From contig DFGM01000142.1 in assembly GCA_002371755.1 (NCBI GenBank), positions 1 to 56,517 of the forward strand: a DNA stretch of 56,517 nt. Reading direction: 5' to 3'. A model generated the notes under the pieces. That model was not told the origin of the DNA. It was given only the letters and a program-made list of their open reading frames with translations, and did not search any database. Positions within the stretch are counted from its first letter, which is position 1; the number at the start of each line of letters is the position of its first letter. Below are positions 1 through 43,253 of the stretch, piece by piece. Source of the stretch: Verrucomicrobia bacterium UBA3750 (GTDB taxonomy: Bacteria; Verrucomicrobiota; Kiritimatiellia; RFP12; UBA1067). The position numbers were made by a program, and so were the translations under genes.

Positions 1-2118
1 ACGATACCGGACAGCGTGACGAGTATCGGGAGTTCGGCGTTTAAAAATTGTAGAGGGCTTACGAGTGTGACGATGCCGGCACGGTTCAATACTCAATTTG
101 GTGACAATTTGAATGGTTGTCGGATTGCATATATCGCAACTGTTAAGGTCGATGTTGATGGGGAAGCGTTGACAACAAGATATGTCCCATGCGGGTCGGC
201 AATAGGAAAGTTGATAGCCGTGCAGCCGCGCGAAGGCTATACAGCGGTGTTCTTTTCGGCAAAGGATGATGGCGTCGAGATTTCTGCGGATACGGTGGTG
301 AACGAGGACATGACGGTTTATGTTCGGTGGATTGAGAATGAGCGTCAGGTGACTTTCGACGCAAATGGTGGTGCGGGCGGTAAGACGGTAACGCAGGACT
401 ATGGCACGGAGCTGGCTGCTCCGACGGTGACTAGGGCTGGTTATACGTTTGCAGGCTGGTCGCCTGAAGTCCCTGCTACTGTTCCTGCAGGCGATGCGAC
501 GTATGTGGCGCAGTGGACGGCCAACAAATACTCCATAGCCTACGATCCAAACGGCGGCAGCGGCAAGATGAATGCGACGCCAATGGTGTATGACGAGGTG
601 GGTGTCGTCGCCACATCGACATTCACTTATCCTGGGTATCTGTTTGCGGGATGGGCGACGAACGCGACTGGCGAGGTGGTGTACGGCGCAGGGCAGGCCG
701 TCAGCAATCTCTCTGCGCAGTCGGGCGGCGTTGTGACGCTGTACGCCGTCTGGGATGAGCGTGCGCTGACGTTTGGCGAGGCGGTAGGGACGGATGCGAA
801 AACCGAGTCCATCCCTTGGACGGTTGTCGAAGGCGAGGGGTGGATGGTTGATTTCGTCACGAACTATGATGGGGACGCGTCCTTGCGGAGCGGAGAGGTT
901 CCTGCCGCCGTTGACGGTGGTCGCACCGACACTACGTTGACGACGACGGTCTTTGGCGAGGGAAGCGGCTCATTTTGGTGGAAGGTGAGCTGCGAGAGTA
1001 TGGACGAGGAGTTTGGCGAATGGTATGACTATGCCGTGTTCTCGGTGGATGGCGCGGAAGTTGCAAGAATCGCGGGCGACAGCGGTTGGCAGGATGTTGA
1101 GTACGAAGTGACGGGCAATGTGTCGCATGTGCTGTCGTGGACGTTTACGCGCGACGACTGGGACGAACCCGACGCGGAATGGGAGAATGCCTTGTGGCTG
1201 GACGACTTCTCGTGGACGAAGGTGCTGACGCTCGGGGACGCGGCGAGCGCGGACGAGACAAGTGCGATGCTCCCGTGGGCGACAGGCGGGGACGCGGAAT
1301 GGACGGTTGACGAGACAACAGGCTGCGAGGACGGCCACTCCGCGATGAGCGGAGTGGTTACGAGTGGACAGTCATCGTGGATCGAGGTGTCGGTCGATGG
1401 CCCGGGAACGGCGACGTTCATGTGGAACGTGATGGGCGAAATCTATCGTGGTAATCCATTCGCATATGCAAAGGTCGAGGTTGACGGTGAAGAAAAGGCG
1501 CAAGAGTACAAGACCGACGGATGGAAGGAAAGGGCGCTTGATATTGATGGTGATGGAACGCATACGATCCGTTGGACGTATCTGCGCACGAGCGGCCGTG
1601 ATGCGGACGGCGACTGCGCTTGGCTTGACGCGGTGAGTTGGACGCCTAGCGAGGAGACGGAGGGCGTTGCGATTCTGGTCAACAGCGCGGCGGTTGAGTT
1701 CGAGACGGCTGCGGACGGGAAGTCGCGGACTGCGGCGGTCGCGGCGGGAACGACGGCGGAGGATGTGAAGGTCTTTGTCGGCGGCGTTGACGTGACGGCT
1801 GGGTTCAAGGTCGCGGTAGATGGAACGACGGCGACGGTGGCGTTGCGGGAGCCGTTTGAGAGGACGGGTGACGCGGCGGTTTCATCGAAACCGCCCTACC
1901 GTGAAAACGACGACGGCAAGACGGTTACGCTGAATGTCGAGGTTGTGCCGGGGCTTTACTATGCGGCGGATTCGGCGGCGACCATAGAGGCATTGAAGCG
2001 TCCGGGCGCGGCGGAGCCGGCGAAGGCTGGCGATGTCCTGACTCTCCCGAAGCAGGGCGGTTCACAAGGCTTCTACAAGGTCTGGGTTAGTGACGCGCCT
2101 ATTGCGGCAGACGATTGA
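1..2118 (+). CDS. surface repeat protein, 5'-partial (BspA-type LRR remnant, Listeria-Bacteroides/InlB B-repeats, two paralogous ~120-aa modules)
   Basis: The frame is open from nt 1 (TIPDSVTSIGSSAFKNCRGLTSV resembles a BspA-type LRR unit). Two ~70-aa units contain GYTFAGW / GYLFAGW, typical of Flg_new/InlB B-repeats. Two internal modules end in LWLDDFSWT / AWLDAVSWT. TGA at 2116-2118. Confidence 0.8.
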   Translation, partial: TIPDSVTSIGSSAFKNCRGLTSVTMPARFNTQFGDNLNGCRIAYIATVKVDVDGEALTTRYVPCGSAIGKLIAVQPREGYTAVFFSAKDDGVEISADTVVNEDMTVYVRWIENERQVTFDANGGAGGKTVTQDYGTELAAPTVTRAGYTFAGWSPEVPATVPAGDATYVAQWTANKYSIAYDPNGGSGKMNATPMVYDEVGVVATSTFTYPGYLFAGWATNATGEVVYGAGQAVSNLSAQSGGVVTLYAVWDERALTFGEAVGTDAKTESIPWTVVEGEGWMVDFVTNYDGDASLRSGEVPAAVDGGRTDTTLTTTVFGEGSGSFWWKVSCESMDEEFGEWYDYAVFSVDGAEVARIAGDSGWQDVEYEVTGNVSHVLSWTFTRDDWDEPDAEWENALWLDDFSWTKVLTLGDAASADETSAMLPWATGGDAEWTVDETTGCEDGHSAMSGVVTSGQSSWIEVSVDGPGTATFMWNVMGEIYRGNPFAYAKVEVDGEEKAQEYKTDGWKERALDIDGDGTHTIRWTYLRTSGRDADGDCAWLDAVSWTPSEETEGVAILVNSAAVEFETAADGKSRTAAVAAGTTAEDVKVFVGGVDVTAGFKVAVDGTTATVALREPFERTGDAAVSSKPPYRENDDGKTVTLNVEVVPGLYYAADSAATIEALKRPGAAEPAKAGDVLTLPKQGGSQGFYKVWVSDAPIAADD

Positions 2119-2273
2119 CGTGGATGCAATCCCTGGAGACCCTGCTCGTTTCGGATGATCGTGCGACTTATGGTGATTTCGGCTTAATCAAGCAGACAGG
2201 TGACAAGGTCTTTGCCCATACCCTATGGGCATTTACTTTGGCAAGTCATCCGCGCGGATGCTCCATTTCCCGT

Positions 2274-2303
2274 TTGCACTTTGGGCCGGGGATTTGGTAT
2301 AAT
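2274..2303 (+). promoter_or_regulatory. sigma70-type promoter upstream of glnS
   Basis: TTGCAC (2274-2279), 18-nt spacer, extended -10 TGgTATAAT (TATAAT at 2298-2303), about 40 nt upstream of the glnS ATG. Confidence 0.5.
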
Positions 2304-2343
2304 ATGCATCCAACCCTCAAATCCATGGATATATTGGAGATAT

Positions 2344-4056
2344 ATGAACGAATCTGACACTTCCAGGCACTTTCTGCGCCAATGGATCGAAAAGGACGTC
2401 GCCGACGGCAAAACAGGCGGCAAAGTCGTGACACGCTTTCCACCCGAACCGAACGGCTACATCCATATCGGTCACGCAAAGGCGGTGTGCGTGGACTTCG
2501 GCATGGCCGCGCTTTTCGGCGGCGAATGCCATTTGCGTCTTGACGACACGAATCCGGCAAAGGAATCCGACGAATACGCCGAAAACATCAAGAAGGATAT
2601 TCGCTGGCTCGGTTTCCAGTGGTCTGGCGATGGCGACGGGGTCGAGAGCGGGTTCTACAACGCTTCCAATATGTTCGACAAGATGTACGAGATTGCCGAA
2701 AATCTCATCAAGCGCGGTCAGGCATACTGCTGCAATCTCGGGCAGGAAGAGTGGAAAGAATACCGCGGCACGCCCGAAAAACCCGGCAAGCCCTCCCCTT
2801 CCCGCGATACCGACCCCGAACGCAACCTCAAAATCTTCCGCGAAATGCGCGACGGCAAGTATGCGGACGGCGAATGGTGCCTCAGGGCGAAGATCGACAT
2901 GTCCTCGCCAAACATCCATTTCCGCGATCCCGTCCTTTACCGCATCCGCCATGTCGCGCACTACCATCTTGGCGAGAAGTGGTGCATCTATCCCATGTAC
3001 GACTTTGCGCACCCGATTGAAGATGCGCTTGAAGGCGTGACGCATTCCATGTGCACGCTCGAGTTCGAGGTGCACCGTCCGCTATACGATTGGGTAGTGG
3101 ACCGTCTGGATGAAATGGGTATGCTCGTAGAGCGAGGCGGCGTCAAGATACGCCCGCAACAGCGCGAATTCGCGCGCCTCAATCTCACGCACACGGTGAT
3201 GTCGAAGCGTCTTTTGCTGCAGCTTGTCACCGAAGGCCGGGTGAACGGCTGGGACGATCCTCGCATGCCCACCGTATGCGGCATGCGCAGGCGCGGCTAC
3301 ACTCCAGGCGCGATACGCGAGTTCTGCGAACGCGTGGGCGTATCCAAGGTGGAAAGCGAAAGCGAAGGTGCGCTTCTGGAATGGTGCGTCAGGGAGGAGC
3401 TGAACAAGACTGCACTGCGCCGCATGGCCGTGCTCGACCCCGTCAAAGTGGTCATCGACAACTTCGAGGGCGTTCGCGAGGTGGAACTGCCGAACAACCC
3501 GCTGGACGAATCCGCGCTTACGCGCAAAATCCCCTTCTCCCGCGAAATCTGGATTGACAGGAGCGACTTCATGGAGGTGCCGGAGAAGAAGTTCTTCCGC
3601 ATGTTCCCGGGCGGCGAGGTGCGCCTGAGGGGGGCTTGCATCTTCAAATGCTCGCACGCCGTCAAGGACGATGCCGGCAATGTCGTTGAGATCCACGGCA
3701 CCTGGGACCCCGGCTCATGGGGCGGCAACGCTCCAGACGGCAGAAAGGTGAAAGGCACCATCCATTGGGTCGATGCCGCGACGGGCGTCAAGGCGAAGTT
3801 CCGTCTCTACGAGCAGCTTTTCACCGCGAAAGATCCTCTGAAGGATGGTTCCGAGCGCTTTTTGGAGCACATGAACCCCGATTCTCTTTGCGAGAAGGAG
3901 GGATTCGTGGAGCCGCTTCTCGGCACTGCCGCGCCCGGCGAACGCTTCCAGTTCGAGCGCACCGGGTATTTCGTCGCCGACGAAAAGGACTTCTCGCCAT
4001 CATCCCCCGTCTTCAACCGCACTGTCACCCTGAAGGACTCGTACAAGCCGGCATGA
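2344..4056 (+). CDS. glnS: glutaminyl-tRNA synthetase
   Basis: 570 aa. Class I HIGH motif (PEPNGYIHIGHAKA), KMSKS-like VMSKR, and GlnRS-like sequence throughout. Start set at ATG 2344, because the upstream 48 codons of the tracked ORF overlap the promoter region. Confidence 0.93.
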   Translation: MNESDTSRHFLRQWIEKDVADGKTGGKVVTRFPPEPNGYIHIGHAKAVCVDFGMAALFGGECHLRLDDTNPAKESDEYAENIKKDIRWLGFQWSGDGDGVESGFYNASNMFDKMYEIAENLIKRGQAYCCNLGQEEWKEYRGTPEKPGKPSPSRDTDPERNLKIFREMRDGKYADGEWCLRAKIDMSSPNIHFRDPVLYRIRHVAHYHLGEKWCIYPMYDFAHPIEDALEGVTHSMCTLEFEVHRPLYDWVVDRLDEMGMLVERGGVKIRPQQREFARLNLTHTVMSKRLLLQLVTEGRVNGWDDPRMPTVCGMRRRGYTPGAIREFCERVGVSKVESESEGALLEWCVREELNKTALRRMAVLDPVKVVIDNFEGVREVELPNNPLDESALTRKIPFSREIWIDRSDFMEVPEKKFFRMFPGGEVRLRGACIFKCSHAVKDDAGNVVEIHGTWDPGSWGGNAPDGRKVKGTIHWVDAATGVKAKFRLYEQLFTAKDPLKDGSERFLEHMNPDSLCEKEGFVEPLLGTAAPGERFQFERTGYFVADEKDFSPSSPVFNRTVTLKDSYKPA

Positions 4057-5273
4057 CACGCAGAGTCGCCATCACTGGAATGGGCATCGTGAGTGCGCTC
4101 GGGAACGACATTCCGGGCGCGTTCCAGCGACTCAAGACACCGCAAAATCTTGTCGAGCACGTTGAAGAACTCGCCGCGATAAAGGGGATGTTCTCGCATT
4201 TGGGTTCGCTTGCGCACTTTAGGCGCCCTTCCCGCTGGGATCGCAAGACGACGCGCACGATGGGACCTGTCGCAATGTATGCGCTCGCCGCCACGGAAGA
4301 GGCGCTTGCGCAGGCAGGAATCGACGAGGCGACATTGGAAAGCGGAAGATGCGGCATCGCCTACGGAAGCTGTTCGGGTTCGATTGCGCCCCACCTCGAC
4401 TTCCTCTCGATGATGCATACGCACGAGGTGAAAAACATCACGAGCGGCACATACATAAAGCTCATGCCCCAGACGACGGCCTGCAATCTTTCGGTGCATT
4501 TCAAGACGCACGGCAGGCTTGTTCCGACGGGTACAGCCTGCACCTCCGGCTCGCTCGCCATCGGCAACGCCTACGAACTCGTGAAATACGGCATTCAGGA
4601 CGTGATGATCGCCGGGGGCGCAGAGGAGTTTTCGCCTGCGCAAGTGGCCATCTTCGATACGCTCTTCGCCACATCCACAAGAAACGGCGAACCCTCCAAA
4701 ACGCCCGCGCCGTACGATGCCAACCGCGACGGCCTTGTGATTGGCGAAGGCGCCTGCACCTTGATAGTGGAGGACATGGAGCGGGCCAAGGCACGGGGCG
4801 CGAAAATCCTCGCCGAAGTCGTCGGCTTTTGCGAAAACACCGATGGCACCCATGTCACCAACCCCAACGCCGAAACGATGTGCGCCGCACTGAAAGGCGC
4901 AATTGCCGACGCCCAAATCTCGCCAGATGCGATTTCCTATGTGAACGGACACGGCACGGCGACTAAAACGGGCGACATCGCCGAAACGCACGCCACTCGC
5001 GAGGCGTTTGCCAGAGCCGTGCCGATTTCTTCTACAAAGTCGTATATCGGCCACACGCTGGGCGCTTGCGGAGCGATTGAAGCGGCCATGACAATCTGTT
5101 CGCTGAACGAAGGCTGGTTCCACCCCACGCTCAATCTAACCACGCCGGATCCCGCATGCGCCGAACTCGACTACATCACAGGCGACGGCAGGCGCATGGA
5201 TGCGGAATACGCCATGAGCAACAACTTCGCTTTCGGCGGCGTGAATACCTCCCTCGTCTTCCGCCATCCCTGA
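4053..5273 (+). CDS. beta-ketoacyl-[ACP] synthase, KAS I/II family
   Basis: 406 aa starting MTRRVAITGMGIVSALGN. Active-site Cys context TACTSGSLAIGNA, His motifs HGTATKTGD and GHTLGACGAIE, C-terminal NNFAFGGVNTSLVF. The ATG overlaps the glnS TGA (ATGA at 4053-4056). Confidence 0.88.
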   Translation: MTRRVAITGMGIVSALGNDIPGAFQRLKTPQNLVEHVEELAAIKGMFSHLGSLAHFRRPSRWDRKTTRTMGPVAMYALAATEEALAQAGIDEATLESGRCGIAYGSCSGSIAPHLDFLSMMHTHEVKNITSGTYIKLMPQTTACNLSVHFKTHGRLVPTGTACTSGSLAIGNAYELVKYGIQDVMIAGGAEEFSPAQVAIFDTLFATSTRNGEPSKTPAPYDANRDGLVIGEGACTLIVEDMERAKARGAKILAEVVGFCENTDGTHVTNPNAETMCAALKGAIADAQISPDAISYVNGHGTATKTGDIAETHATREAFARAVPISSTKSYIGHTLGACGAIEAAMTICSLNEGWFHPTLNLTTPDPACAELDYITGDGRRMDAEYAMSNNFAFGGVNTSLVFRHP

Positions 5274-13376: not shown

Positions 13377-13634
13377 TCACTTCCCCTCCTCATCGTCACA
13401 GCCGAAGGTATACTGGCGAGTTTCGGAGACATTCAACCACCCTTTGTACCAAGTAGGGGTAGTGGTGTATTTTTTGGCCTCAATCATAAGCCTGTATCTA
13501 CCGGGCGGCAGGCTCTCATAGCCTGTAGTCGTAATATCAACCCTTCTCTCGCGAATGAGATTGAAGCCCTTGTCTTCTATTGTGATGCATCCGGCCAGCA
13601 TTGTCGCTGCCGCAATCGCCATCAGTTTCTTCAT
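13377..13634 (-). CDS. phage-encoded lipoprotein
   Basis: 85 aa. Signal peptide with lipobox (MKKLMAIAAATMLAGC). Confidence 0.65.
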   Translation of the reverse strand: MKKLMAIAAATMLAGCITIEDKGFNLIRERRVDITTTGYESLPPGRYRLMIEAKKYTTTPTWYKGWLNVSETRQYTFGCDDEEGK

Positions 13635-13669: not shown

Positions 13670-13867
13670 TTACTCAAACTCCTTGCCGTCGACTGTGCAC
13701 GTCACGCCCATCCGGCGGAGGCTGCGCTTAAGGCTGTCGTTCGGCTTGCGCTGGCCGTGCAGCACTTTGGATAGGTGCTCGCGTGAGCAGCCAAACCGCC
13801 GCGCGGCGCCCGTGATGCCGGTATAGGTCATCCGGCTCTTGATCATCGATGTCGCTTTCGACTTCAT
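13670..13867 (-). CDS. Ner/Cro-like small HTH regulator (first gene of early arm)
   Basis: 65 aa. HTH ITGAARRFGCSREHLSKVLHG. It is the first ORF downstream of the leftward promoter, facing the repressor gene. Confidence 0.6.
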   Translation of the reverse strand: MKSKATSMIKSRMTYTGITGAARRFGCSREHLSKVLHGQRKPNDSLKRSLRRMGVTCTVDGKEFE

Positions 13868-13883: not shown

Positions 13884-13912
13884 TTGTCTTTGTCATACTT
13901 TTATGATATAAT
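13884..13912 (+). promoter_or_regulatory. rightward promoter for the repressor operon
   Basis: TTGTCT (13884-13889), 17-nt spacer, extended -10 TGaTATAAT (TATAAT at 13907-13912). Confidence 0.55.
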
Positions 13913-13940: not shown

Positions 13941-13969
13941 ATTGTATCAAATCGGATACAGGTTGTCAA
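13941..13969 (-). promoter_or_regulatory. leftward early promoter
   Basis: On the minus strand: TTGACA (13969-13964), 17-nt spacer, TACAAT (13946-13941). The predicted start sites of the two promoters cross each other by ~15 nt. Confidence 0.6.
13943..13960. promoter_or_regulatory. palindromic operator TGTATC-N6-GATACA inside the early promoter
   Basis: Perfect 6-bp arms at 13943-13948 and 13955-13960, spanning the -10/spacer of the leftward promoter. An extra TGTATC half-site lies at 13975-13980, and a second palindrome GTCACaacGTGAC at 13921-13933. Confidence 0.55.
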
Positions 13970-14000
13970 TGGTGTGTATCGGAAAAATAACAGACAAACA

Positions 14001-14399
14001 ATGAGCGTGTTGAGCGAGAGATTGAAAGAGTTGCGAGGTCCAACATCGCAGTCTGAAATGGCGCGGCAATTGGGAATGCCGCGCCCACAATGGATACGCT
14101 ACGAAACTGGCAAGAGCGTTCCAGGCTCTGATATACTCGCTGAAATCTGTCGCGTTCACGACTGCTCCGCCGACTGGCTGCTAGGGCTTCGCACGCCTCC
14201 ACGGCCGGTGCGCGTGACGGCGATTGATGCCGGGGACCACGCGGTCGTCGCCATCGGAGATAAGTCGCGCACGACGGTGCGCGTCACTTCTGCCGCGCCA
14301 GGCAAACGCCCCGACTGCAACGACTGCCCCTACAAAGAAAAGATGAAGGAGTTTGAAGCATTCTTCACTGCCACCAAAAAGAAAGGCAAAAGGAAATGA
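14001..14399 (+). CDS. XRE-family HTH repressor (c-repressor analogue)
   Basis: 132 aa from MSVLSERLKELRG. Classic HTH_3 (SQSEMARQLGMPRPQWIRYETGKSVP). Arranged head-to-head with the early arm (overlapping promoters, transcribed away from it). Confidence 0.8.
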   Translation: MSVLSERLKELRGPTSQSEMARQLGMPRPQWIRYETGKSVPGSDILAEICRVHDCSADWLLGLRTPPRPVRVTAIDAGDHAVVAIGDKSRTTVRVTSAAPGKRPDCNDCPYKEKMKEFEAFFTATKKKGKRK

Positions 14400-15493
14400 A
14401 TGTTCAACAGCCAGTCTTCACTTTCAAACCACTTCTTAAAAGATCCCTCTTTGAGAAATTATTCGGGCTCAAAAAAACAGAGAATGCTTTCAGAGAAATC
14501 AACAACGTTATTGCGGCAGCTCCTCGACCTTCATTGTCCGACATAGAGAAAATCAACGAACTTCATATGCGCTATGGGGCGAATGCCGTTATACAATGCC
14601 GTTCGCATGCGCTTGCACAGTATCGTTCATACCTGAAATCCTGTTTCCGTTCGCTGGCCCACACGGAAATCAGCCAACAAGACCTTGACGATCTGCAAAC
14701 GATCCAACATGCCTATCTGATCTCAGACGAAGAAATCTATGAACAAAACTTGCAGGTCGGCAAGTCGATCTACCAATGGGCGCTCAAAAACGCATTGTCA
14801 GACGGAGTCATAACCGACATGGAGAAGGCGCAATTAACGCATCTCGGGCACCAGCTCAATCTTGACGATGATGTCATTCATCAGATTTATGCCAAGGAAT
14901 TGCAATGCTTGTTAACGGCAAAATTGGAAGCCGCGCTTAAAGACGGGGAGATGTCACCCGAAGAGGAGGGGGAGATTGAAACCATCTGCCGACGATTCAA
15001 CATAAACCATAGCTATGAGATTGAAACCCAGGCTATCGTCGATGCCGCAAAAGATTTGTGGCAAGCCAAACACGGACGGCTGACACCGATTGAGGCTGAT
15101 ATTGCCCTGAAACCACGCGAAGAATGTTATCACGCCCAGCAGGTGGAATGGTGGGAACTCTCACAGTCACGTTCAAGAATGCACACACGAGACTCCAAAA
15201 CTACTTCCGTCTTCGTGGACTGCTGTCCCATTGTGGGTGGCACAATGAAGCAAATTGACGCAGGAACGCTTTACGTCACCAATATGCGACTGTTGTTTGT
15301 TGGACTAAATGGAACCAAGACATTACCTTACACAAGACTGATCAACGTGAGCGTCCATGAACCGTTTGTGCGACTTGACAAGGATTCTGGACGTAGTCCC
15401 TATTTGGCACCATCAAAAAACGTCAACAGCCTGTCGGCTCTGATCAACAGAATGATCGCCAAGCCTCACAGGAATTCATCTTTGCCGGAGTAG
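14396..15493 (+). CDS. repressor-coupled accessory protein: helical acidic repeats plus C-terminal PH/GRAM-like domain
   Basis: 365 aa. The ATG overlaps the repressor TGA (ATGA at 14396-14399). Visibly AT-richer than flanking phage DNA. Three DG-x-I/M-x3-E-type helical repeats. C-terminal GTLYVTNMRLLFVG...VRLDKDSGRSPYL. Confidence 0.8.
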   Translation: MNVQQPVFTFKPLLKRSLFEKLFGLKKTENAFREINNVIAAAPRPSLSDIEKINELHMRYGANAVIQCRSHALAQYRSYLKSCFRSLAHTEISQQDLDDLQTIQHAYLISDEEIYEQNLQVGKSIYQWALKNALSDGVITDMEKAQLTHLGHQLNLDDDVIHQIYAKELQCLLTAKLEAALKDGEMSPEEEGEIETICRRFNINHSYEIETQAIVDAAKDLWQAKHGRLTPIEADIALKPREECYHAQQVEWWELSQSRSRMHTRDSKTTSVFVDCCPIVGGTMKQIDAGTLYVTNMRLLFVGLNGTKTLPYTRLINVSVHEPFVRLDKDSGRSPYLAPSKNVNSLSALINRMIAKPHRNSSLPE

Positions 15494-15518: not shown

Positions 15519-15542
15519 GCCCCTTGCAAGGGGTTTTATTTG
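15519..15542 (+). terminator. possible rho-independent terminator after the repressor operon
   Basis: GCCCCTTGCAAGGGG hairpin (short GC stem) followed by TTTTATTT. Confidence 0.4.
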
Positions 15543-15552: not shown

Positions 15553-15658
15553 GACGCGCATGTGCGAGCCGATGGTGGCCTGACGATGCGCCCTTGCGCG
15601 TTTTTCCGGCCCTTTGACGCGCACGTGCGCGTGATTTTCGCGACCATGCGCGTTGCGC
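15553..15658. repeat. A-B-A-B array of GC-rich near-palindromic motifs in the non-coding region before the late arm
   Basis: A: GACGCGCATGTGCG (15553-15566) and GACGCGCACGTGCG (15616-15629, containing the perfect palindrome GCGCACGTGCGC). B: GACGATGCGCCCTTGCGCG (15582-15600) and GACCATGCGCGTTGCGC (15642-15658). Period ~60-63 bp. Confidence 0.6.
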
Positions 15659-34880: not shown

Positions 34881-35603
34881 ATGGTGGATTCAATCGAGTT
34901 TTCAGAACTGGAGATAAGGGAGTTTGAAAACGCCTTAAAGGAGGCTGAAAAGGCGGTTGACAAGCTCTCTCTCCCGGCCTCGCGCAAGACGATCATCGAG
35001 GCCGCGAACGCCGGGCTGGTCAATGGACTGCGCCGCTATTTCCGTCAGCGCGAGCAGATGCCGGGGCGGAAGGACGGTTTTCCGTGGTTCGGCCAGGCAT
35101 ACCCAAAGAGCTACTTCTGGTACGGCACGCGCGGCACGTCCGTCGCCGAGAGGATTCGTGTCACGCTGTCCTCGCCGACGCGGATGGTCGGACAGGTGAC
35201 TATTGCATCGCCCGCGCTCGCCCGCATGGTTGCCGAGCATCCGCAGCCGATCCGTCCAAAGGGTGGGCGGCGATTCCTGGCGATTCCTGCCTCGCCTCTG
35301 GCCGCGAACTGGTCAGGCATGCCGAAGGACTTCCCAGGCGGCCTCCGTTTTGCATTCTCGAAGACGCCAGACGGGAACTGGCTGCCGTCCCTTGTCGCCG
35401 CTTCAAACGTCAAACGATCGGGCAAGGGGTCTGGTGGTGTCACGGCGAGCGGAAAGAAAGGCGCTGGCTCGGTCGTCTATTGGCTCGTGCACAAGGTCAA
35501 CCCGCGTCGCGATCGGACGGCGATGCCGTCGATTCACGATCAGAAGGCGTTTGCGAGGAGTTCGGTCGCGGTGGCGGTCAAGCGCATCTTGGCGACGCAG
35601 TGA
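34881..35603 (+). CDS. virion morphogenesis protein (Mu gpG-like, tentative)
   Basis: 240 aa from MVDSIEF (RBS AGGAAAGG). The pattern ...RYFRQREQ...VTIASPALARMVAEHPQPIRPKGGRRFLAIPA resembles gpG/tail-completion families. Last ORF before the right end. Confidence 0.45.
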   Translation: MVDSIEFSELEIREFENALKEAEKAVDKLSLPASRKTIIEAANAGLVNGLRRYFRQREQMPGRKDGFPWFGQAYPKSYFWYGTRGTSVAERIRVTLSSPTRMVGQVTIASPALARMVAEHPQPIRPKGGRRFLAIPASPLAANWSGMPKDFPGGLRFAFSKTPDGNWLPSLVAASNVKRSGKGSGGVTASGKKGAGSVVYWLVHKVNPRRDRTAMPSIHDQKAFARSSVAVAVKRILATQ

Positions 35604-35639
35604 TTTTTTCCATTTCAATTTGATTCGGCGGTTGCGCGG

Positions 35640-35761
35640 GTGTCTCTTTCCCATATTGCGCTTTCGCGCCGTCGCGGATCGGCACCATGCTTTCGGCCAG
35701 TCGTGTCCGGCTTAATCCGTCTTCTGTCGGTTCTTTTCCCGTTTCCCAGCAGACTGATTCA
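35640..35761. repeat. putative prophage right end with inverted TGGGAAA-type motifs
   Basis: CTTTCCCA at 35646-35653, and TTTTCCCGTTTCCCA at 35734-35748 (reverse complements of TGGGAAAG / TGGGAAAC). Ends ...GACTGATTCA at 35761. Confidence 0.4.
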
Positions 35762-35782
35762 CGGCGTGCCCCGTGAGCAGTG

Positions 35783-35811
35783 TTGCATCGTGCACGGAAT
35801 TGTGGTATAAT
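35783..35811 (+). promoter_or_regulatory. sigma70-type promoter (extended -10) for the small membrane protein / nadC / coaX cluster
   Basis: TTGCAT (35783-35788), 17-nt spacer, TGgTATAAT (TATAAT at 35806-35811). The ATG at 35819 lies only ~8 nt after the -10 element. Confidence 0.6.
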
Positions 35812-39100: not shown

Positions 39101-39176
39101 TGGTCGGACTGGCGGGGATCGGACCCGCGACCCCAACATTAAAAGTGTCGTGCTCTACCAACTGAGCTACAGTCCG
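39101..39176 (-). tRNA. tRNA-Lys (anticodon UUU), CCA encoded
   Basis: Manual cloverleaf on the minus strand: CGGACTG-TA-GCTC-AGTTGGTA-GAGC-A-CGACA-CTTTTAA-TGTTG-GGGTC-GCGGG-TCCGATC-CCCGC-CAGTCCG-A-CCA (76 nt). Confidence 0.92.
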
Positions 39177-39200
39177 TTATTGAGGTGGCAACGGGCGCAT

Positions 39201-39229
39201 ATTATACCGAATTCCTCGCGGAAAATCAA
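39201..39229 (-). promoter_or_regulatory. promoter of tRNA-Lys
   Basis: On the minus strand: TTGATT (39229-39224), 17-nt spacer, TATAAT (39206-39201), ~25 nt upstream of the mature tRNA 5' end. Confidence 0.55.
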
Positions 39230-39239
39230 GGGGGTGCGC

Positions 39240-39254
39240 CAAAAAATCTAGGGG
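39240..39254. repeat. left copy of the 15-bp target-site duplication of the IS
   Basis: CAAAAAATCTAGGGG immediately abuts IRL. An identical copy lies at 40711-40725. Confidence 0.8.
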
Positions 39255-40710
39255 TGTCGCGTGGATTTCAAAAGCGGAATTTTTGTGGAGAGCAAAAGCG
39301 GAATGCTCTTAGACGTTTCCGACCCTTGGATTGGTCGAAAACACGACCCTTGGACGCACTGCATGTTCCGGTTTGTTCAGCACGATCGAGAATGACCCGT
39401 CCACATGCCGGCACAGCCAGCCACGAGTCCCATTCGCGCACCCGGTCGGGCACCACAGTCCGTCGACGACAGCCTTCCCCCCTGGGCCTATGACGATGCC
39501 GCCCCACTGCGCCCACACAAGCTCCCACCATCCGTCATCAGGGATCGGGCGTATCTTCGAGCGTCCCTCGGCAATCGCCTTTTCCCACGCTGCCCTGGGA
39601 GTCATTCGTATTTCGCTGTGCACCTCAAAGTCGTTCCGGTAATCGACGAGCGAATCGATCCTGCCGTTCACAACCTCCAGCGGAGTGTCGACGCCCACCC
39701 CTTCATTCTTGAAATACCGAGGCAGCCTGTCCTGCCAGACCTGATGAACCCGCTCGATCTTCCCCTTCGCGGCAGGCGTGTTCGCGCACATGAAAGTGAT
39801 GCCGTAAAACCTCAACCGTTTTGCGAGCTGGGTGTCGGATCCGTCGTCCTTGCAGAAGAATGTCGCCTTGTCGACATAGATCTGCAGAGGCAGCCCGTAG
39901 CGCATGAAAGCCTTGTAAAACAAGTGCAAATACGAATCCACGCGCTCATGGCTGTACAGCGAGCAGCCCACCTGGAGCCTGCTACAGTCGTCAAGCATGT
40001 CTATCAGATGCAGCTGCGAATGCTCCCTGCCAAAGAAGTAGTCCGGCGTGGCGTCAAGCTGCCACAGTTCGCCGATGCTGGTGCGCTGCCACCGCCTGAC
40101 ATGCGGCGTGACGCGAGGCTTCCCGAGGAAGCTCTTGATGCCATGGTCGATCGCCCAGTGCCGCACCTGCCCCCTGTCCACGGCAAACCCGAACTTGCGC
40201 CCCAGCTCGCTCGCCGCGAACGCGTACGAGTACCTGTCGGCATTGCTGTGCGCGCCAAGGACTCTACGCAGGAACGACTGCACCTCCTCCGGCCACGCCT
40301 GCATGTGATTCCCGCCGGACGATCCCGGAATCCAGGTTTCTGACGCTCCCCTTGCCTTTGCCCTGAGAAAATCCGCCTTCAGCTCATAGAGCCTGGTCTT
40401 TCCGATGCCAAGCTCGGAGAGTGCCTGCACGAGTGAAATGGAGCCTTCCGAGAAGGACTTTACCGTGTCGCGCACGTGCGCGACGCCCAGCCTGTTTGCA
40501 ATCTGTTTTTTCATGGCGGAATTGTATCAAATTCCGCTTTTGCTCTCCACATCGGGCGGCGGCCCCCCTAGGGGGGCCTTAGGGATCAGACTTGGTTGAC
40601 GACACCCAATAAAAACGGCCTAATCTGTCGCTGAAGCCCGCCAAACAATCCCCAAAATGCCATTCCGCTTTTGCTCTCCACAAGTTTCCGCTTTTGCTTT
40701 CACCGCGACA
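39255..40710. mobile_element. IS481-family-like insertion sequence (1456 bp)
   Basis: Single rve-type DDE transposase ORF. ~50-bp imperfect terminal inverted repeats starting TGTCGCG (IRL TGTCGCGTGGATTTCAAAAGCGGAATTTTTGTGGAGAGCAAAAGCGGAATG; IRR reverse complement TGTCGCGGTGAAAGCAAAAGCGGAAACTTGTGGAGAGCAAAAGCGGAATG). Flanked by a perfect 15-bp direct repeat. Confidence 0.85.
39309..40514 (-). CDS. DDE (rve) transposase, IS481-like
   Basis: 401 aa. N-terminal HTH (GIGKTRLYELK). Catalytic-core landmarks WQLDATP, IYVDKATFF and AAKGKIERVHQ. Confidence 0.85.
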   Translation of the reverse strand: MKKQIANRLGVAHVRDTVKSFSEGSISLVQALSELGIGKTRLYELKADFLRAKARGASETWIPGSSGGNHMQAWPEEVQSFLRRVLGAHSNADRYSYAFAASELGRKFGFAVDRGQVRHWAIDHGIKSFLGKPRVTPHVRRWQRTSIGELWQLDATPDYFFGREHSQLHLIDMLDDCSRLQVGCSLYSHERVDSYLHLFYKAFMRYGLPLQIYVDKATFFCKDDGSDTQLAKRLRFYGITFMCANTPAAKGKIERVHQVWQDRLPRYFKNEGVGVDTPLEVVNGRIDSLVDYRNDFEVHSEIRMTPRAAWEKAIAEGRSKIRPIPDDGWWELVWAQWGGIVIGPGGKAVVDGLWCPTGCANGTRGWLCRHVDGSFSIVLNKPEHAVRPRVVFSTNPRVGNV

Positions 40711-40725: not shown

Positions 40726-41207
40726 CGGGAATTGTATGCCCGTTTGCGCTTGTTGCGCTTGCGCCACTCCTGGGGATTGACAGGATCGGGATTCGCCCAG
40801 AGGCCAAGCTTTTGTTCTCGTGCATCCCGTTCGGCGTCACAGTATGCGACAGTCTTGTCGAACCGTCGATAGTGCCACGCGTTGCCGGTCGCCACCATCT
40901 CAAGGTTGATGTCCAGATCTTCCAGGAAGATGAGCCCTAGGATTCTGCCGTATCTATCCTTCTTGTCGTAGCAGATCCTGACAGTCTTCCCGAAGATCTT
41001 ATTCCTTAAATGTTCCGCAGCCTCCTTGCCGTACTCCTGCCGCGATTCCGGAGCATCGATCCTATCAAGCCGAATCTTCGATTTCTCGCTCCCTGCAAGC
41101 AAATGCACGGTATCGCCGTCATAAACCTTCACCACCCTGCCTTCAATCGTATCGGCAAGGACCGCACCAGCGACAAGCGCTGCAACTATGGCAAATATAC
41201 GCTTCAT
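40719..41207 (-). CDS. secreted thermonuclease (SNase-like)
   Basis: 162 aa from MKRIFAIVAALVAGAVLA (signal peptide). VYDGDTVHL...IRLDRIDAPESRQEYG...DRYGRILG...ATGNAWHY are typical staphylococcal-nuclease-fold motifs. Confidence 0.85.
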   Translation of the reverse strand: MKRIFAIVAALVAGAVLADTIEGRVVKVYDGDTVHLLAGSEKSKIRLDRIDAPESRQEYGKEAAEHLRNKIFGKTVRICYDKKDRYGRILGLIFLEDLDINLEMVATGNAWHYRRFDKTVAYCDAERDAREQKLGLWANPDPVNPQEWRKRNKRKRAYNSRP

Positions 41208-41265
41208 ATGGTTTATTGCTCCTTTTCTGCAACGACTCCTGTGTTTCTCAATGGTAATCTTCATG

Positions 41266-41298
41266 AATATATTCGCACTCTGTCGCAAAATCTGACAA
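41266..41298 (-). promoter_or_regulatory. conserved promoter-like motif, copy 1 (upstream of thermonuclease)
   Basis: Minus strand: TTGTCAGATTTTGCGACAGAGTGCGAATATA. TTGTCA, 19 nt, then an A/T-rich hexamer. Confidence 0.45.
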
Positions 41299-41792
41299 CT
41301 TGCATTGTCAAAAATCTGGTTCTTCGCAAGATTTAACGGGCAAATTGGATAAATATCAACGCGTGGCCGCACGGAGGACGGGAATGCCAATGAGAATAAG
41401 TTCAACAATGCCGACAATGGGAGAACGACAACATCAACAATCGCCTGTGCTTGTGCTTCGGCGCATCACGATATAATTGTCATTATTGGATAAAATTGTT
41501 GCCATTATTGAAAATATCCAATAGGGGGAAACAAGTCAGGCAAGGGTGCCGGGAGTTGAGGGTGGAGTAAGAGAAACTATCTATATGATGGAACGACAGG
41601 CCGTATCTGCATCATGCCCATCATGGATAGTGCATGGTGCGAATGAAATCGGAATACTGCTGTGCGGAACAATCGCCGACAACATGCCAATGAGCGAAGT
41701 TGAGCGCAAGTTCGCCGCACGGGCCAGCAAAGCAACTACAACAACAAGCCATTTCAAATCATACCCCATGTTTGACCCTTTACAAGTCACCG

Positions 41793-43253
41793 TCAATTCA
41801 CGCACAGGTCTTCGCTGCGGTCGCTAGGGATAAGGTTGCGTTTCATGACCCGGGCGGTCGATTCGCGCATTTCCTTTGCGTCCACAATCACCTTGATGTC
41901 CCATTCGTTGCCGCGATCCAGCCCGAAGCACACGAATCCATCCCTGCACGAATCGACGAGCTCCACGAGATGCCGGAGATTGCGCACCTTCACCCCGTTG
42001 ACGCTCCGCACCAGCGATTTGTCACAGCCTATATACCCCTCGATGCACTTGTCGGCGAAGCAAAACGAAATCACGACGGCCTCTTCATGGTCGAATTCCT
42101 TGTCACGGAATAGATCGTCGTGGAATTTCGCGTCCGACTGCACCATGTAGTCGAGCGAAATTGTCGTAAACACAAAGCCTCCATACACGAAATAGTCGGG
42201 CTTTTCATCATACATCCACCCGCGGATTGGCGGATTCTTCTTCATGGCCGTAATGGAGGTTTCAACGACGGCGCCGTCGCGATACACTTTCACAGGTATC
42301 TTCTCCCCTATCTGGCGGACATAGAGAGGATAGTAAAGCGAACGAGGTTCTCCTCCCTTGAGGCGGATTCGGCCGTTGTTGGAGACCTTGTATCCATCAA
42401 CCTCAAGTATAATATCATCCGTGCGAATCGAATCTGTTCCCAAGACCGAGGCAACATCCTGGACAATTACGCCCGTACGCCCCGAATCCATCTTATAATA
42501 GCGCCGTTTCGCAGGGCTTTCCATTTGATCCTCCGAAAACAATAAATCAGGAAAACCATCTACTCTCCCATCCCGAATGTCTACAAGGAAGTGCCGTATG
42601 ATGTCCGAAGGAATGATGAACCCAAGAGCCTCTCCTTCCTCCTTGCCAAGGCCCTGGAACGCAATGCCGGCAATTTTCCCGCTTCTCATATCCAGCACAG
42701 GGCCTCCGCTATTGCCAGGGTTGATGGCCGCGTCAACCTGGATTCCAAGAAGATACGTCCAGCCATGGGAATAACTGATGTCCTCTATGCGGGAGACAAT
42801 GCCGCGCGTATAGGAAATATCCTCGCCGCCAAGTGGATAGCCGACGGCCAGCACATCATCCTGCACATGCGGCGTTTCGCCTATCTCCATGGGTTCAATA
42901 CCCTCCATGAACGCGGGATCGTCGACTCCGACCAGCGCCAGGTCGGCATCATTGTCTACAAATTTAACCGAACCATGGTAGAGCGTGTCTTCGTTGTGCT
43001 TGCGAACACGGATATAACAGGAATCCGTCACGCAGTGGGCGCAGGTGAGGATAAGCCCCCTGTCAATTACTGCACCCGATCCGGTCCCGCCTGACGTGCG
43101 ATTGGCCCACGGACAGCAGATATCCGGCTTGGCGGTCGTAACCTCAAGTTTGACGACTGCGTTGAGCGGATTGATTTCGCCATCCTGGACTGCCGCTTCC
43201 TGTGCAAACCCAGGCATTGCCGCAGCGACCAAACCTGCAACCATAGTTCTCAT
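41793..43253 (-). CDS. secreted Deg/HtrA-type trypsin-like serine protease with C-terminal PDZ-like region
   Basis: 486 aa. Signal peptide. Catalytic His (LTCAHCV), Asp (DADLALV) and Ser (GNSGGPV). Confidence 0.85.
   Translation of the reverse strand: MRTMVAGLVAAAMPGFAQEAAVQDGEINPLNAVVKLEVTTAKPDICCPWANRTSGGTGSGAVIDRGLILTCAHCVTDSCYIRVRKHNEDTLYHGSVKFVDNDADLALVGVDDPAFMEGIEPMEIGETPHVQDDVLAVGYPLGGEDISYTRGIVSRIEDISYSHGWTYLLGIQVDAAINPGNSGGPVLDMRSGKIAGIAFQGLGKEEGEALGFIIPSDIIRHFLVDIRDGRVDGFPDLLFSEDQMESPAKRRYYKMDSGRTGVIVQDVASVLGTDSIRTDDIILEVDGYKVSNNGRIRLKGGEPRSLYYPLYVRQIGEKIPVKVYRDGAVVETSITAMKKNPPIRGWMYDEKPDYFVYGGFVFTTISLDYMVQSDAKFHDDLFRDKEFDHEEAVVISFCFADKCIEGYIGCDKSLVRSVNGVKVRNLRHLVELVDSCRDGFVCFGLDRGNEWDIKVIVDAKEMRESTARVMKRNLIPSDRSEDLCVN

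What the first reader, a model, noticed from the sequence alone, without database searches (positions are those of the whole stretch)
14396..15493. Low-GC 365-aa gene translationally coupled to the prophage repressor: candidate lysogen-expressed exclusion/defence module
Seen in the sequence:
- The ATG at 14396 overlaps the TGA of the XRE repressor gene (ATGA). The ORF therefore rides on the lysogeny-maintenance transcript that starts at the TTGTCT-17-TATAAT promoter (13884-13912), not on the early or late lytic arms.
- It is clearly AT-richer than the flanking phage DNA.
- It is followed by a GC hairpin plus T-run at 15519-15542.

Protein features:
- The N-terminal ~230 aa contain three acidic helical repeats (ISQQDLDDLQTIQHAYLISDEEIYEQ; DGVITDMEKAQLTHLGHQLNLDDDVIHQIY; DGEMSPEEEGEIETICRRFNINHSYEIE) that remind me of TerB-like modules.
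- The C-terminal ~110 aa (GTLYVTNMRLLFVGLNGTKTLPYTRLINVSVHEPFVRLDKDSGRSPYL) look like a bacterial PH/GRAM-like domain.

Established knowledge: genes co-transcribed with a prophage repressor (for example lambda rexAB with cI) are typically superinfection-exclusion or abortive-infection functions.

Inference: this is a prophage accessory gene protecting the lysogen. I do not recognise this domain combination as a named defence system.
Basis: partly seen in the sequence, partly recalled or inferred. Interest (0 to 1): 0.72.

Follow-up and report, generated by a model that had tools for sequence, protein, structure and literature searches.

The report
Repressor-coupled TerB/PH-domain prophage gene
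A real gene fused to the end of a Mu-like prophage's repressor gene encodes a helical-repeat plus PH-like protein from a large, unnamed family; relatives sit right behind the repressor in unrelated temperate phages of five phyla, so it is probably a membrane-linked protein made in the lysogen, possibly to exclude other phages, though its function is untested.

Summary
ORF 14396-15493 is real (dN/dS 0.13-0.26), overlaps the XRE repressor stop codon (ATGA), is AT-richer than the phage (GC3 0.53 vs 0.71-0.90) and is followed by a hairpin and T-run.

With 60 distant relatives, AlphaFold gives pLDDT 91.5. Residues about 18-226 form TerB/Tic110-like helical hairpins. Residues about 244-355 form a PH/GRAM-like fold.

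The protein is not an orphan. Exhaustive HMMER finds about 1,640 clusters, every named one "hypothetical".

In a clade of Kiritimatiellae Mu-like phages (37-96% identity) the gene always follows the repressor. The C-domain sits on the repressor strand of the lysogeny module, directly after the repressor or one gene further on, in a Bacteroidota-type Mu-like phage, an Anaerolineaceae phage, Enterococcus and Lactobacillus prophages and Bordetella avium phages. There it is fused to TM helices, a Zn-ribbon or nothing.

Chromosomal copies pair with a DUF3761 membrane protein or a K+ channel, never with an HTH gene.

Best reading (about 0.5): a lysogen-expressed, membrane-proximal exclusion or abortive-infection factor. 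No function has been shown, and it matches no named defence system. The PADLOC PDC-S48 hit covers only the repeat segment.

The parts
13884..13912 (+). Sigma-70-like promoter (TTGTCT-17-TATAAT, TG-extended) upstream of the repressor. Presumed lysogeny-maintenance promoter for the two-gene operon.
   Evidence: 10 of 12 matches. Consensus match only; no other + strand promoter match lies between here and 15493.
13941..13969 (-). Stronger leftward promoter-like site (TTGACA-17-TACAAT) for the early operon (Ner/Cro-like gene, transposase A, B). The predicted transcription starts of the two promoters overlap by about 15 nt.
   Evidence: 11 of 12 matches. Early genes are on the - strand.
13952..13983 (.). 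Imperfect inverted repeat TCGGATACA-N14-TGTATCGGA spanning the -35 of the leftward promoter. Candidate operator.
   Evidence: 9-nt arms, 89% complementary. Weak and not tested further.
13670..13867 (-). 65-aa Ner/Cro-like HTH protein, first gene of the leftward early operon.
   Evidence: weak HTH and PHROG repressor/HTH hits. Analogous small HTH genes are in L006 and L095.
14001..14399 (+). XRE-family repressor gene (132 aa).
   Evidence: Pfam HTH_31 4.9e-8 and HTH_3 3e-6. PHROG 8/4/2328 transcriptional repressor. NCBIfam RstR-like 1.2e-9, below the family cut-off.
14396..15493 (+). The 365-aa gene (stop codon included), translationally coupled to the repressor through an ATGA overlap.
   Evidence: dN/dS 0.13-0.26. 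The same overlap is present in L001-L004, L006 and L095-L097.
14396..15079 (+). N-terminal region (residues 1-228). After a conserved N-terminal motif it forms stacked alpha-hairpin repeats homologous to Tic110/TerB-type repeats, with DG-x5-E motifs at residues 136-143 and 183-190. Acidic (pI 5.6).
   Evidence: Pfam Tic110 in 61 of 61 and TerB in 34 of 61 family members. PDB 4bm5 (Tic110) profile E 9.4e-21. AF2 helices 18-226 at pLDDT above 90. pI.
15080..15490 (+). C-terminal PH/GRAM-like domain (residues 229-365): seven strands plus a C-terminal helix. Basic (pI 9.1). Carries the family motif G-T-LYVTN-x-RLLF-x-G.
   Evidence: AF2. Foldseek hits to Lam6 GRAM/PH 5yqr, MTMR GRAM 5c16 and 1lw3, Dcp1 EVH1 and PH domains, prob 1.0. 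Pfam GRAM, CheF-arch, Vps36-GLUE and bPH_3 in 18, 14, 11 and 3 of 61 relatives.
15519..15542 (+). Intrinsic-terminator-like hairpin plus T-run, 25 nt after the stop codon. Presumed end of the lysogeny transcript.
   Evidence: The fold itself is not exceptional (z 0.55). Analogous hairpins follow the homologues in L092 and L095.

Best explanation
The ORF is a real gene and the second cistron of the prophage repressor operon.

Shown:
- It has an ATGA overlap with the repressor gene.
- No promoter-like match of its own was found.
- A terminator-like hairpin follows it.
- It encodes a soluble two-domain protein with no TM segment. The N-terminal part is an acidic stack of TerB/Tic110-type alpha-hairpin repeats. 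The C-terminal part is a basic PH/GRAM-like domain.
- It belongs to a large unnamed family.

Inferred from position and from five or more independent parallels in other temperate phages: it is made in the lysogen together with the repressor.

Inferred mechanism: the PH/GRAM-like domain works at the inner face of the cytoplasmic membrane. Relatives are tethered there by their own TM helices, or are paired with a DUF3761 membrane protein or a K+ channel. The TerB-like repeats act as a sensor or adaptor, as proposed for TerB proteins in the Bunzi, Shango and Dionysus systems.

The most likely output is protection of the lysogen against other phages. This could work by blocking genome entry (Sie-like). 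It could also work by perturbing a membrane protein or ion flux on infection (Rex-like abortive logic, with a host-encoded membrane partner).
For: 1. Real gene in the repressor operon.

2. Architecture:
- AF2 pLDDT 91.5, pTM 0.82.
- Foldseek hits to PH/GRAM folds.
- Tic110 in 61 of 61, TerB in 34 of 61 and GRAM-type hits in relatives.
- PDB 4bm5 E 9e-21.

3. The slot is conserved in a clade of Kiritimatiellae Mu-like phages at 96, 76, 44 and 37% identity, always directly after the XRE repressor. In L006 only the ORF itself is similar at the DNA level.

4. Independent placements of the family's C-domain in the lysogeny module, on the repressor strand:
- L088: a Mu-like phage with an HTH_3+S24 repressor. 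Its protein is closest (55%) to Flavobacteriales chromosomal copies.
- L091: an Anaerolineaceae phage with a PH-only protein.
- Enterococcus faecium prophages: repressor, ImmA-like gene, TM+PH gene, integrase.
- Lactobacillus phage JNU_P4: a Zn-ribbon+PH protein between the two genes that occupy the repressor and ImmA-like positions (annotated hypothetical; role assigned by position only) and a further hypothetical gene followed by the integrase.
- Bordetella avium phages IFTN1-7: Cro | repressor, hypothetical gene, 2TM+PH gene.
- C-domain HMM E-values are 7e-35, 1e-26 and 2.5e-19.

5. XRE HTH adjacency is seen only in phage loci and in 0 of 80 chromosomal loci. The gene is therefore a passenger on the repressor transcript, not a generic HTH partner.

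6. Membrane theme:
- A TM-TPR-DUF3761 partner lies immediately upstream in 34 of 96 loci.
- Ion_trans K+ channels are adjacent in 7 of 96 loci, with an eighth case at L005.
- P0003 has a C-terminal TM helix.

7. Some chromosomal copies are next to defence genes: Cap4-nuclease/NB-ARC, Mokosh, Shedu, OLD/PARIS/Gabija-type ATPases and a type II REase.

8. Precedents:
- lambda cI-rexAB (established knowledge).
- Exclusion genes on the repressor transcript of Mu-like phage Fc02 (PMC9936078).
- TerB proteins in Bunzi, Shango and Dionysus with a proposed membrane-surveillance role (10.1101/2025.09.30.679545).
Against: - There are no expression data and no phenotype for any family member. Every named member is "hypothetical".
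- Most nearest neighbours of chromosomal copies are housekeeping or metabolic genes. The defence hits (roughly 10 of 135) were not compared with a control.
- Full-length copies occur in T4-like phages away from any repressor.
- The conserved basic hairpin of the family's PH domain (R.VT.R..Y.GP..R.KI.KG.Y.R.G) is replaced in this phage clade and is modelled with low confidence. Lipid or ligand binding may therefore differ.
- The PADLOC match (PDC-S48) covers only the repeat segment.
- The window has no membrane partner gene in the operon.
Confidence: 0.5

Rival explanations
1. Lysogenic-conversion factor for host physiology rather than phage defence. In this reading it is a membrane-peripheral regulator of ion or membrane homeostasis, for example one that modulates a K+ channel or envelope stress in the way ter-operon TerB proteins are thought to. 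That would improve the fitness of the lysogen.
For: - Chromosomal relatives are co-operonic with Ion_trans K+ channels (4-bp overlap in L098/L099) or with a TM-TPR-DUF3761 protein.
- Their other neighbours are mostly ordinary metabolic genes.
- TerB/Tic110-type repeats are present.
- T4-like phages carry the family too, which could reflect host-membrane management during infection.
Against: - The position next to the repressor, repeated in five phage lineages, is the classical slot for exclusion or immunity cargo. In Enterococcus phage 4995_1 the same slot holds a DUF4352 protein instead.
- Several chromosomal copies abut bona fide defence genes.
- The ter operon itself is reported to confer phage inhibition (my own knowledge), so this rival overlaps with the defence reading.
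Confidence: 0.25
2. Part of the lysis-lysogeny switch: a sensor or co-factor that modulates the repressor. It might sequester, stabilise or inactivate the repressor in response to a membrane or ionic signal, by analogy with ImmA/ImmR or antirepressors. Translational coupling would then set its stoichiometry with the repressor.
For: - ATGA coupling to the repressor is conserved across the Kiritimatiellae phage clade.
- In L001-L004 the conserved DNA block starts inside the repressor's C-terminal half and runs through the gene.
- HTH genes lie near P0003 and P0175.
Against: - No HTH gene is adjacent in 0 of 80 chromosomal loci.
- The associated repressors are of different types: short XRE, HTH+S24, XRE+ImmA.
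- In the Enterococcus and Lactobacillus prophages an ImmA-type protease is already present between the repressor and this gene.
- The protein has no HExxH motif, no protease hit and no DNA-binding hit.
- T4-like phages carry the family.
Confidence: 0.12
3. A lytic-cycle function read from a different transcript, for example membrane-associated help for transposition or replication, lysis timing, or counter-defence. In that case the link to the repressor would be incidental.
For: - Full-length relatives occur in T4-like phages among replication and structural genes.
- The gene lies between the early and late arms, and a cluster of palindromic sites follows it.
Against: - It lies on the same strand as the repressor and overlaps it.
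- It diverges from the early operon.
- It is separated from the next + strand genes by a terminator-like hairpin and about 350 nt.
- The arrangement recurs in lysogeny modules beside integrases.
Confidence: 0.08

Closest known systems
lambda cI-rexA-rexB (and Sbash gp30/gp31, CarolAnn gp44/43)
   Same: Accessory cargo is placed directly downstream of the prophage repressor and, by position, transcribed with it in the lysogen. It has a cytoplasmic component with a membrane theme. Some chromosomal relatives of this family are paired with an ion channel, echoing the sensor-plus-channel logic (PMC6426596).
   Different: There is no sequence or domain relation: no DUF4747 (RexA) hit. The operon in the window has no 4-TM RexB-like partner, only a single gene. 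No phenotype is known.
TerB-domain proteins of defence systems (Bunzi BnzA, Shango SngA, Dionysus DinB) and ter-operon TerB
   Same: The N-terminal repeats carry the TerB-type DG-x5-E helical motif. TerB Pfam hits are found in 34 of 61 relatives. A membrane-surveillance role has been proposed for such proteins (10.1101/2025.09.30.679545).
   Different: The query's own TerB score is below the Pfam cut-off (22.1 vs 24.4 bits). The best-matching model is Tic110 repeats. The operon has no helicase, ATPase or pore-forming partner. Fusion to a PH/GRAM-like domain is not a feature of those systems. Only one relative gave a weak BnzA hit.
Tic110 stromal helical-repeat domain (PF16940; PDB 4bm5)
   Same: The alpha-hairpin repeats are homologous: all 61 family members hit PF16940 (best 1e-19), and the profile matches 4bm5 at E 9.4e-21 over profile positions 51-200.
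   Different: Tic110 is a roughly 1000-aa chloroplast inner-envelope protein with N-terminal TM helices and no PH domain. The present protein is bacterial or phage-borne, 365 aa and soluble. The relation is a shared repeat module, not orthology.
PADLOC candidate PDC-S48
   Same: Significant HMM match (1.3e-11 for the query; 58 of 61 relatives).
   Different: Only profile positions about 223-317 of 411 align, which is the TerB/Tic110-like repeat segment. An unrelated HNH-plus-repeat protein (P0181) gives the same partial match. PDC-S48 is itself an untested candidate for which I found no literature.
Superinfection-exclusion genes in the repressor-integrase slot of Firmicutes prophages (e.g. Sie2009 of Tuc2009) and Mu-like Fc02 exclusion genes
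   Same: They occupy the same genomic slot and presumed lysogenic expression. The Enterococcus, Lactobacillus and Bordetella relatives are small, N-terminally anchored proteins, like Sie proteins (PMC9936078).
   Different: There is no homology to Sie2009 or to the membrane-anchored Abi protein PdpSau (C-domain HMM E 0.3 and 0.07). The window protein has no TM anchor.

Membership tests
PH-like / GRAM superfamily (fold level) | Seven-stranded antiparallel beta-sandwich capped by a C-terminal alpha-helix. | tested here: met
   AF2 model: strands 244-339 plus helix 343-355, pLDDT above 90 except the loop 263-276. Foldseek: Lam6 GRAM/PH, MTMR GRAM-PH, Dcp1 EVH1 and many PH domains at prob 1.0, E 1e-3 to 1e-2.
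PH-like / GRAM superfamily (sequence level, Pfam GRAM PF02893 / bPH families) | Significant match to a curated PH-clan model. | tested here: inconclusive
   The query alone has no hit, even when the C-domain is scanned separately. Among 61 relatives, GRAM hits 18, CheF-arch 14, Vps36-GLUE 11 and bPH_3 3, all at E<=0.01 and none strong.
TerB (PF05099) | Match above the Pfam gathering score; helical bundle with conserved acidic DG...E motifs. | tested here: inconclusive
   Query 22.1 bits vs cut-off 24.4, E 2e-4, residues 166-206. 34 of 61 relatives match, best 1.9e-7. DG-x5-E motifs are seen at residues 136-143 and 183-190 (sequence). No TerB_N or TerB_C hits.
Tic110 (PF16940), as an orthologue | Chloroplast inner-envelope translocon protein: N-terminal TM helices plus a long stromal repeat domain. 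| tested here: not met
   Only the repeat module is shared. There is no TM segment (maximum Kyte-Doolittle 19-residue mean 0.85). The protein is 365 aa and in a prokaryotic/phage context.
PADLOC PDC-S48 | Full-length match to the PDC-S48 profile. | tested here: not met
   The match is limited to profile positions 223-315 of 411. The same partial match is given by the HNH-repeat protein P0181.
RexAB-type exclusion | RexA-like DUF4747 sensor plus a 4-TM RexB-like channel, co-transcribed with the repressor. | tested here: not met
   No DUF4747 hit. There is no second gene before the terminator. Only the position behind the repressor is shared.
Moron (classical definition) | Atypical composition. 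| tested here: met
   GC3 0.525 vs 0.71-0.90 for phage core genes.
Moron (classical definition) | Its own terminator. | tested here: met
   A terminator-like hairpin plus T-run follows the stop codon.
Moron (classical definition) | Its own promoter. | tested here: not met
   No promoter-like match of its own. By position it uses the repressor's promoter.
Moron (classical definition) | Sporadic presence among related phages. | tested here: not met
   The gene is conserved in the same slot across the phage clade down to 37% identity.
ImmA/IrrE-type antirepressor protease | HExxH metalloprotease domain encoded next to the XRE repressor. | tested here: not met
   No Peptidase_M78 hit and no HExxH motif in the sequence. 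In the Enterococcus prophage a separate ImmA-like gene precedes the relative.
Lysogen-expressed prophage gene | Transcript present in the lysogen. | not testable with these tools
   Inferred only from the overlap with the repressor, the strand, the promoter and terminator matches and recurrent synteny.

The most novel reading that the evidence does not exclude
The C-terminal PH/GRAM-like domain may define an unrecognised, cross-phylum class of prophage lysogeny-module effectors. It comes fused to TerB-like repeats, TM helices or a Zn-ribbon. These proteins would act at the inner membrane to exclude or abort superinfecting phages. Their chromosomal relatives, in operons with a DUF3761 membrane protein and/or a voltage-gated-type K+ channel, would be new two- or three-gene defence systems that gate ion flux, following Rex-like logic with unrelated parts.
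Probability: 0.3. Interest if true: 0.8.

Novelty: new variant of a known kind. Interest (0 to 1): 0.6.

Why it matters
Genes carried on prophage repressor transcripts have repeatedly turned out to be exclusion or abortive-infection systems (rexAB, Fc02 exclusion genes, BstA-type genes).

Here an uncharacterised protein family has been captured into that slot independently by temperate phages of Kiritimatiellota, Bacteroidota-type hosts, Chloroflexota, Bacillota and Pseudomonadota.
- It has about 1,640 clusters at 50% identity.
- No curated family covers it.
- It is in no named defence system.

One relative is found on more than 600 Enterococcus faecium contigs and others are in isolated Bordetella avium and Lactobacillus phages. 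The hypothesis can therefore be tested directly in culturable hosts.

If confirmed, it would add a PH-like membrane-proximal module to the prophage defence repertoire. It would also give a function to a widespread Bacteroidota operon (DUF3761 protein, this family, sometimes a K+ channel). If instead the family regulates ion channels or membrane stress, it would be a new kind of lysogenic conversion.

Tried and rejected
- Word-indexed homology search with the single protein found only 3 relatives. With the 61-sequence alignment it found only 6. The apparent orphan status came from the 5-mer prefilter, and exhaustive HMMER fixed it.
- First AF2 run with 4 sequences: the C-domain was not modelled (pLDDT below 50). 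It was superseded.
- The query protein has no tblastn match in 50,697 phage records. The prophage has no megablast match. Patterns from A1 found no GTDB hit. Patterns from the phage clade found nothing in IMG/VR and only distant relatives in JGI metagenomes.
- PDB sequence search with the single protein gave nothing meaningful.
- Tested whether known prophage exclusion or Abi proteins are homologues:
  - Sbash gp30 / RexA (DUF4747): no, from the paper's description of their DUF4747 domain and the lack of a DUF4747 hit here.
  - PdpSau and Sie2009: no (C-domain HMM E 0.07 and 0.3).
- PDC-S48 membership: rejected because only the repeat segment matches. No literature on it.
- Literature searches for TerB+GRAM and for Tic110+TerB gave nothing relevant.
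- Prophage right end: no inverted copy of the left-end sequence and no 5-bp target duplication could be pinned.
- The promoter and terminator scans are not enriched over shuffles, and the terminator region's fold energy is unremarkable. These features rest on position only.
- Neighbour scan for defence-island association: a dozen strong defence hits but no control set, so it is inconclusive.
Full report
**Setting**

The window holds a Mu-like (transposable) prophage in a Kiritimatiellae chromosome.
- Host genes flank it: a Flg_new-repeat protein, GlnRS and a beta-ketoacyl synthase at 1-5273, and type III pantothenate kinase at 36979.
- GlnRS is 81-84% identical to goat, sheep and human gut Kiritimatiellae MAGs.
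- The phage's left end is at 5283 (TGTATTTTC...). The same end is present in the related contig L001 next to different flanking DNA.
- The early operon runs leftward: a 65-aa Ner/Cro-like HTH protein, a 711-aa transposase and an AAA_22/TniB-type B protein. L001 shows Gam further on.
- The repressor and the late genes (Terminase_6N at 17708) run rightward.

**Observation**

- ORF 14396-15493 (365 aa) starts with an ATG that overlaps the TGA of a 132-aa XRE repressor gene (14001-14399).
- The promoter-like site at 13884-13912 and the hairpin plus T-run at 15519-15542 are both found. So is a stronger leftward promoter at 13969-13941, whose predicted transcript would overlap that of the + strand promoter.
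- These are consensus matches and are not enriched over shuffles. Only their position gives them weight.
- The gene's GC is 0.472 and its GC3 is 0.525. Phage core genes have GC3 0.71-0.90.
- The gene is under purifying selection: dN/dS 0.255 against the 96%-identical copy and 0.127 against the 76% copy.
- N-terminal residues are conserved across the family, which supports the annotated start.

**What the protein is**

- The word-indexed search found only three relatives. An exhaustive HMMER search with their alignment found 1,643 cluster representatives at E<=1e-3 and 246 at E<=1e-30. Most are 355-365 aa and match end to end.
- None carries a name other than "hypothetical".
- With 60 of these relatives as the alignment, AlphaFold2 gives pLDDT 91.5 and pTM 0.82.
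  - Helices span residues 18-226.
  - Seven strands (244-339) and a C-terminal helix (343-355) follow.
  - One loop (263-276) is of low confidence.
- Foldseek matches the C-domain to Lam6 GRAM/PH, myotubularin GRAM-PH, Dcp1 EVH1 and many PH domains.
- All 61 aligned members hit Pfam Tic110 repeats (best 1e-19). 34 hit TerB, and 18, 14, 11 and 3 hit GRAM, CheF-arch, Vps36-GLUE and bPH_3.
- The family profile matches the Tic110 crystal structure 4bm5 at E 9.4e-21.
- The protein has no TM segment. The N-terminal region is acidic (pI 5.6) and the C-domain is basic (pI 9.1).
- The PADLOC hit to candidate PDC-S48 (1.3e-11) covers only the repeat segment, positions 223-315 of 411. An unrelated HNH-repeat protein gives the same partial match. 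It is a shared module, not membership.

**Context in related phages**

- The closest relatives (96, 76, 44 and 37% identity) all come from Mu-like phages in gut metagenomes. All sit in the same slot, immediately after an XRE repressor, with 4-bp overlaps (23 bp in L094). Terminator-like hairpins follow in L092 and L095.
- The next relatives are only 28-30% identical. Within this phage lineage the gene is therefore an old resident of the immunity region, not a recent moron.
- It is nonetheless low in GC in every copy.
- DNA comparison shows mosaicism.
  - In L001-L004, similarity of 90-97% begins at 14145, inside the repressor gene. The HTH-coding part is only about 70% identical.
  - In L006 only the ORF itself is similar (78%).

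**Independent parallels**

This is the strongest new evidence. The family, or its C-domain alone, lies on the repressor strand of the lysogeny module in unrelated temperate phages, directly after the repressor or one gene further on.
- L088 is a low-GC Mu-like phage (rve transposase, AAA_22 B protein) with an HTH_3+Peptidase_S24 repressor. Its 268-aa protein is closest (55%) to Flavobacteriales chromosomal copies.
- L091 is an Anaerolineaceae phage with an HTH_3 repressor followed by a 147-aa PH-only protein and then a DUF4352 protein.
- Enterococcus faecium prophages have the order XRE repressor, ImmA-like gene, 233-aa TM+PH protein, integrase. That protein is on 646 contigs.
- Lactobacillus phage JNU_P4 has a 296-aa Zn-ribbon+PH protein. 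It follows the two genes that occupy the repressor and ImmA-like positions (annotated hypothetical; I did not translate or scan them). A further hypothetical gene and then the integrase follow it.
- Bordetella avium phages IFTN1-7 have the order Cro | repressor, 210-aa hypothetical protein, 229-aa 2TM+PH protein.
- A C-domain HMM scores these at 7e-35, 1e-26 and 2.5e-19.
- In Enterococcus phage 4995_1 the same slot holds a DUF4352 protein instead. The slot therefore exchanges cargo.

**Context in chromosomes**

- A GTDB scan found 109 relatives. Most are in Bacteroidota, with others in Chlorobiales, Spirochaetes and further groups.
- In 34 of 96 loci a ~311-aa TM-TPR-DUF3761 protein lies immediately upstream on the same strand, with a median gap of 4 bp.
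- In 7 of those 96 loci an Ion_trans/Ion_trans_2 K+ channel is adjacent. In L098/L099 it overlaps the gene by 4 bp. In L107, L109 and L117 it lies about 930 bp upstream on the same strand, a gap that fits a DUF3761-size gene. L005 adds an eighth, convergent case.
- No XRE HTH gene is adjacent in any of the 80 chromosomal loci. The HTH link is therefore specific to phages.
- P0170 sits beside a Cap4-nuclease/NB-ARC/TPR protein.
- Among 135 nearest neighbours about ten are strong PADLOC hits: Mokosh, Shedu, OLD/PARIS/Gabija-type ATPases, a type II REase and PD-T4-2_B. Most of the rest are metabolic. No control was possible.
- Full-length copies also occur in T4-like phages away from any repressor.

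**Interpretation**

*Shown*
- A real gene.
- The distal cistron of the repressor operon, by arrangement.
- TerB/Tic110-like repeats plus a PH/GRAM-like domain.
- A large unnamed family.
- Recurrent capture into lysogeny modules.
- A recurrent membrane theme.

*Inferred*
- Expression in the lysogen.
- Action at the inner membrane.
- A role in excluding or aborting other phages.

The logic resembles lambda cI-rexAB and the exclusion genes on the repressor transcript of Mu-like phage Fc02 (PMC9936078). TerB proteins in Bunzi, Shango and Dionysus have been proposed to survey the membrane (10.1101/2025.09.30.679545). However, RexA/Sbash gp30 (DUF4747), Sie2009 and PdpSau are not homologues.

The phage clade has replaced the basic hairpin that is conserved elsewhere in the family's PH domain. 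Its ligand may therefore differ.

Three rivals remain: a membrane or ion-homeostasis conversion factor, a switch regulator and a lytic function. The first is the most serious.

**Verdict**

I class it as a new variant of a known kind, namely repressor-operon cargo, built from an uncharacterised protein family. Interest 0.6.

Noticed in passing
window 15554-15632: A cluster of 3-4 copies of the palindromic motif ACGCGCAnnTGCG(CGT) lies in the intergenic region after the terminator. The whole window has 10 matches against 4.4 expected. Similar GACGCGCAC(A/G)TGCGCGT palindromes follow the homologous gene in L001, L004 and L006. It is probably a regulatory site for the next rightward operon.
   Followed up: partly
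window 13377-13634 (- strand): An 85-aa ORF in the early leftward operon has a lipoprotein signal (MKKLMAIAAATMLAGC) and a faint hit to the PHROG Cor superinfection-exclusion lipoprotein (E 0.018). It is a second possible exclusion gene, on the lytic arm.
   Followed up: no
window 5283 and about 35600-35800: The prophage left end is at 5283 (TGTATTTTCAAAAACG..., with TTGGGAAGG-type repeats), directly after the host ketoacyl-synthase gene, and is shared with L001. The right end could not be pinned: no inverted copy of the end and no 5-bp target duplication was found. CTTTCCCA-type motifs lie at 35644-35761.
   Followed up: partly
window 14001-14399 vs L001-L004: The immunity region is mosaic. 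The C-terminal half of the repressor plus the 365-aa gene are 90-97% identical to L001-L004. The HTH-coding half and the operator region are only about 70% identical, which suggests a swap of immunity specificity.
   Followed up: partly
window 15335-15490 (residues 314-365): Twelve of the 14 amino-acid differences from the 96%-identical homologue P0001 fall in the last 52 residues, covering the last strands and the C-terminal helix of the PH-like domain. This could reflect local diversification or a recombination boundary.
   Followed up: no
window 39101-40514 and 41000-56517: tRNA-Lys(UUU) at 39101-39176 (-) is followed by a 401-aa rve-family integrase/transposase ORF (39309-40514, -). Beyond it lies about 15 kb of lower-GC DNA (0.49) with strongly negative GC skew. 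That stretch holds HtrA-like and M48 peptidase genes and several large ORFs with no Pfam hit. It may be a second integrated element or a compositionally distinct host region.
   Followed up: no
L104-L182 (e.g. L130 5062-5997; L107 4193-7080): In Bacteroidota the family forms a conserved operon with a TM-TPR-DUF3761 protein (34 of 96 loci). In L107, L109 and L117 a voltage-gated-type K+ channel gene lies about 930 bp further upstream on the same strand. This is an uncharacterised membrane module.
   Followed up: partly
L087, L089, L090 (IMG/VR): AT-rich T4-like phages (Portal_T4, clamp-loader-like AAA) carry full-length family members. These are 46-52% identical to chromosomal copies, mostly from Bacteroidales, and are not near any repressor.
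   Followed up: partly
L187 5716-6417 vs Enterococcus phage 4995_1; L091 8587-9159: The slot after the repressor and ImmA gene holds a TM+PH protein in some Enterococcus prophages and a DUF4352 protein in the related phage 4995_1. In L091 a DUF4352 protein directly follows the PH-only gene. The two cargo types therefore seem to share or exchange this slot.
   Followed up: partly
L195 4731-5420 (Bordetella phage IFTN1 gp47): This protein is annotated "TerB family tellurite resistance protein" in four of the five matching IFTN records (IFTN1, 3, 6, 7) and "hypothetical protein" in IFTN2. Its sequence shows two N-terminal TM helices plus the PH-like C-domain and no obvious TerB repeat, so the annotation is probably misleading.
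   Followed up: partly
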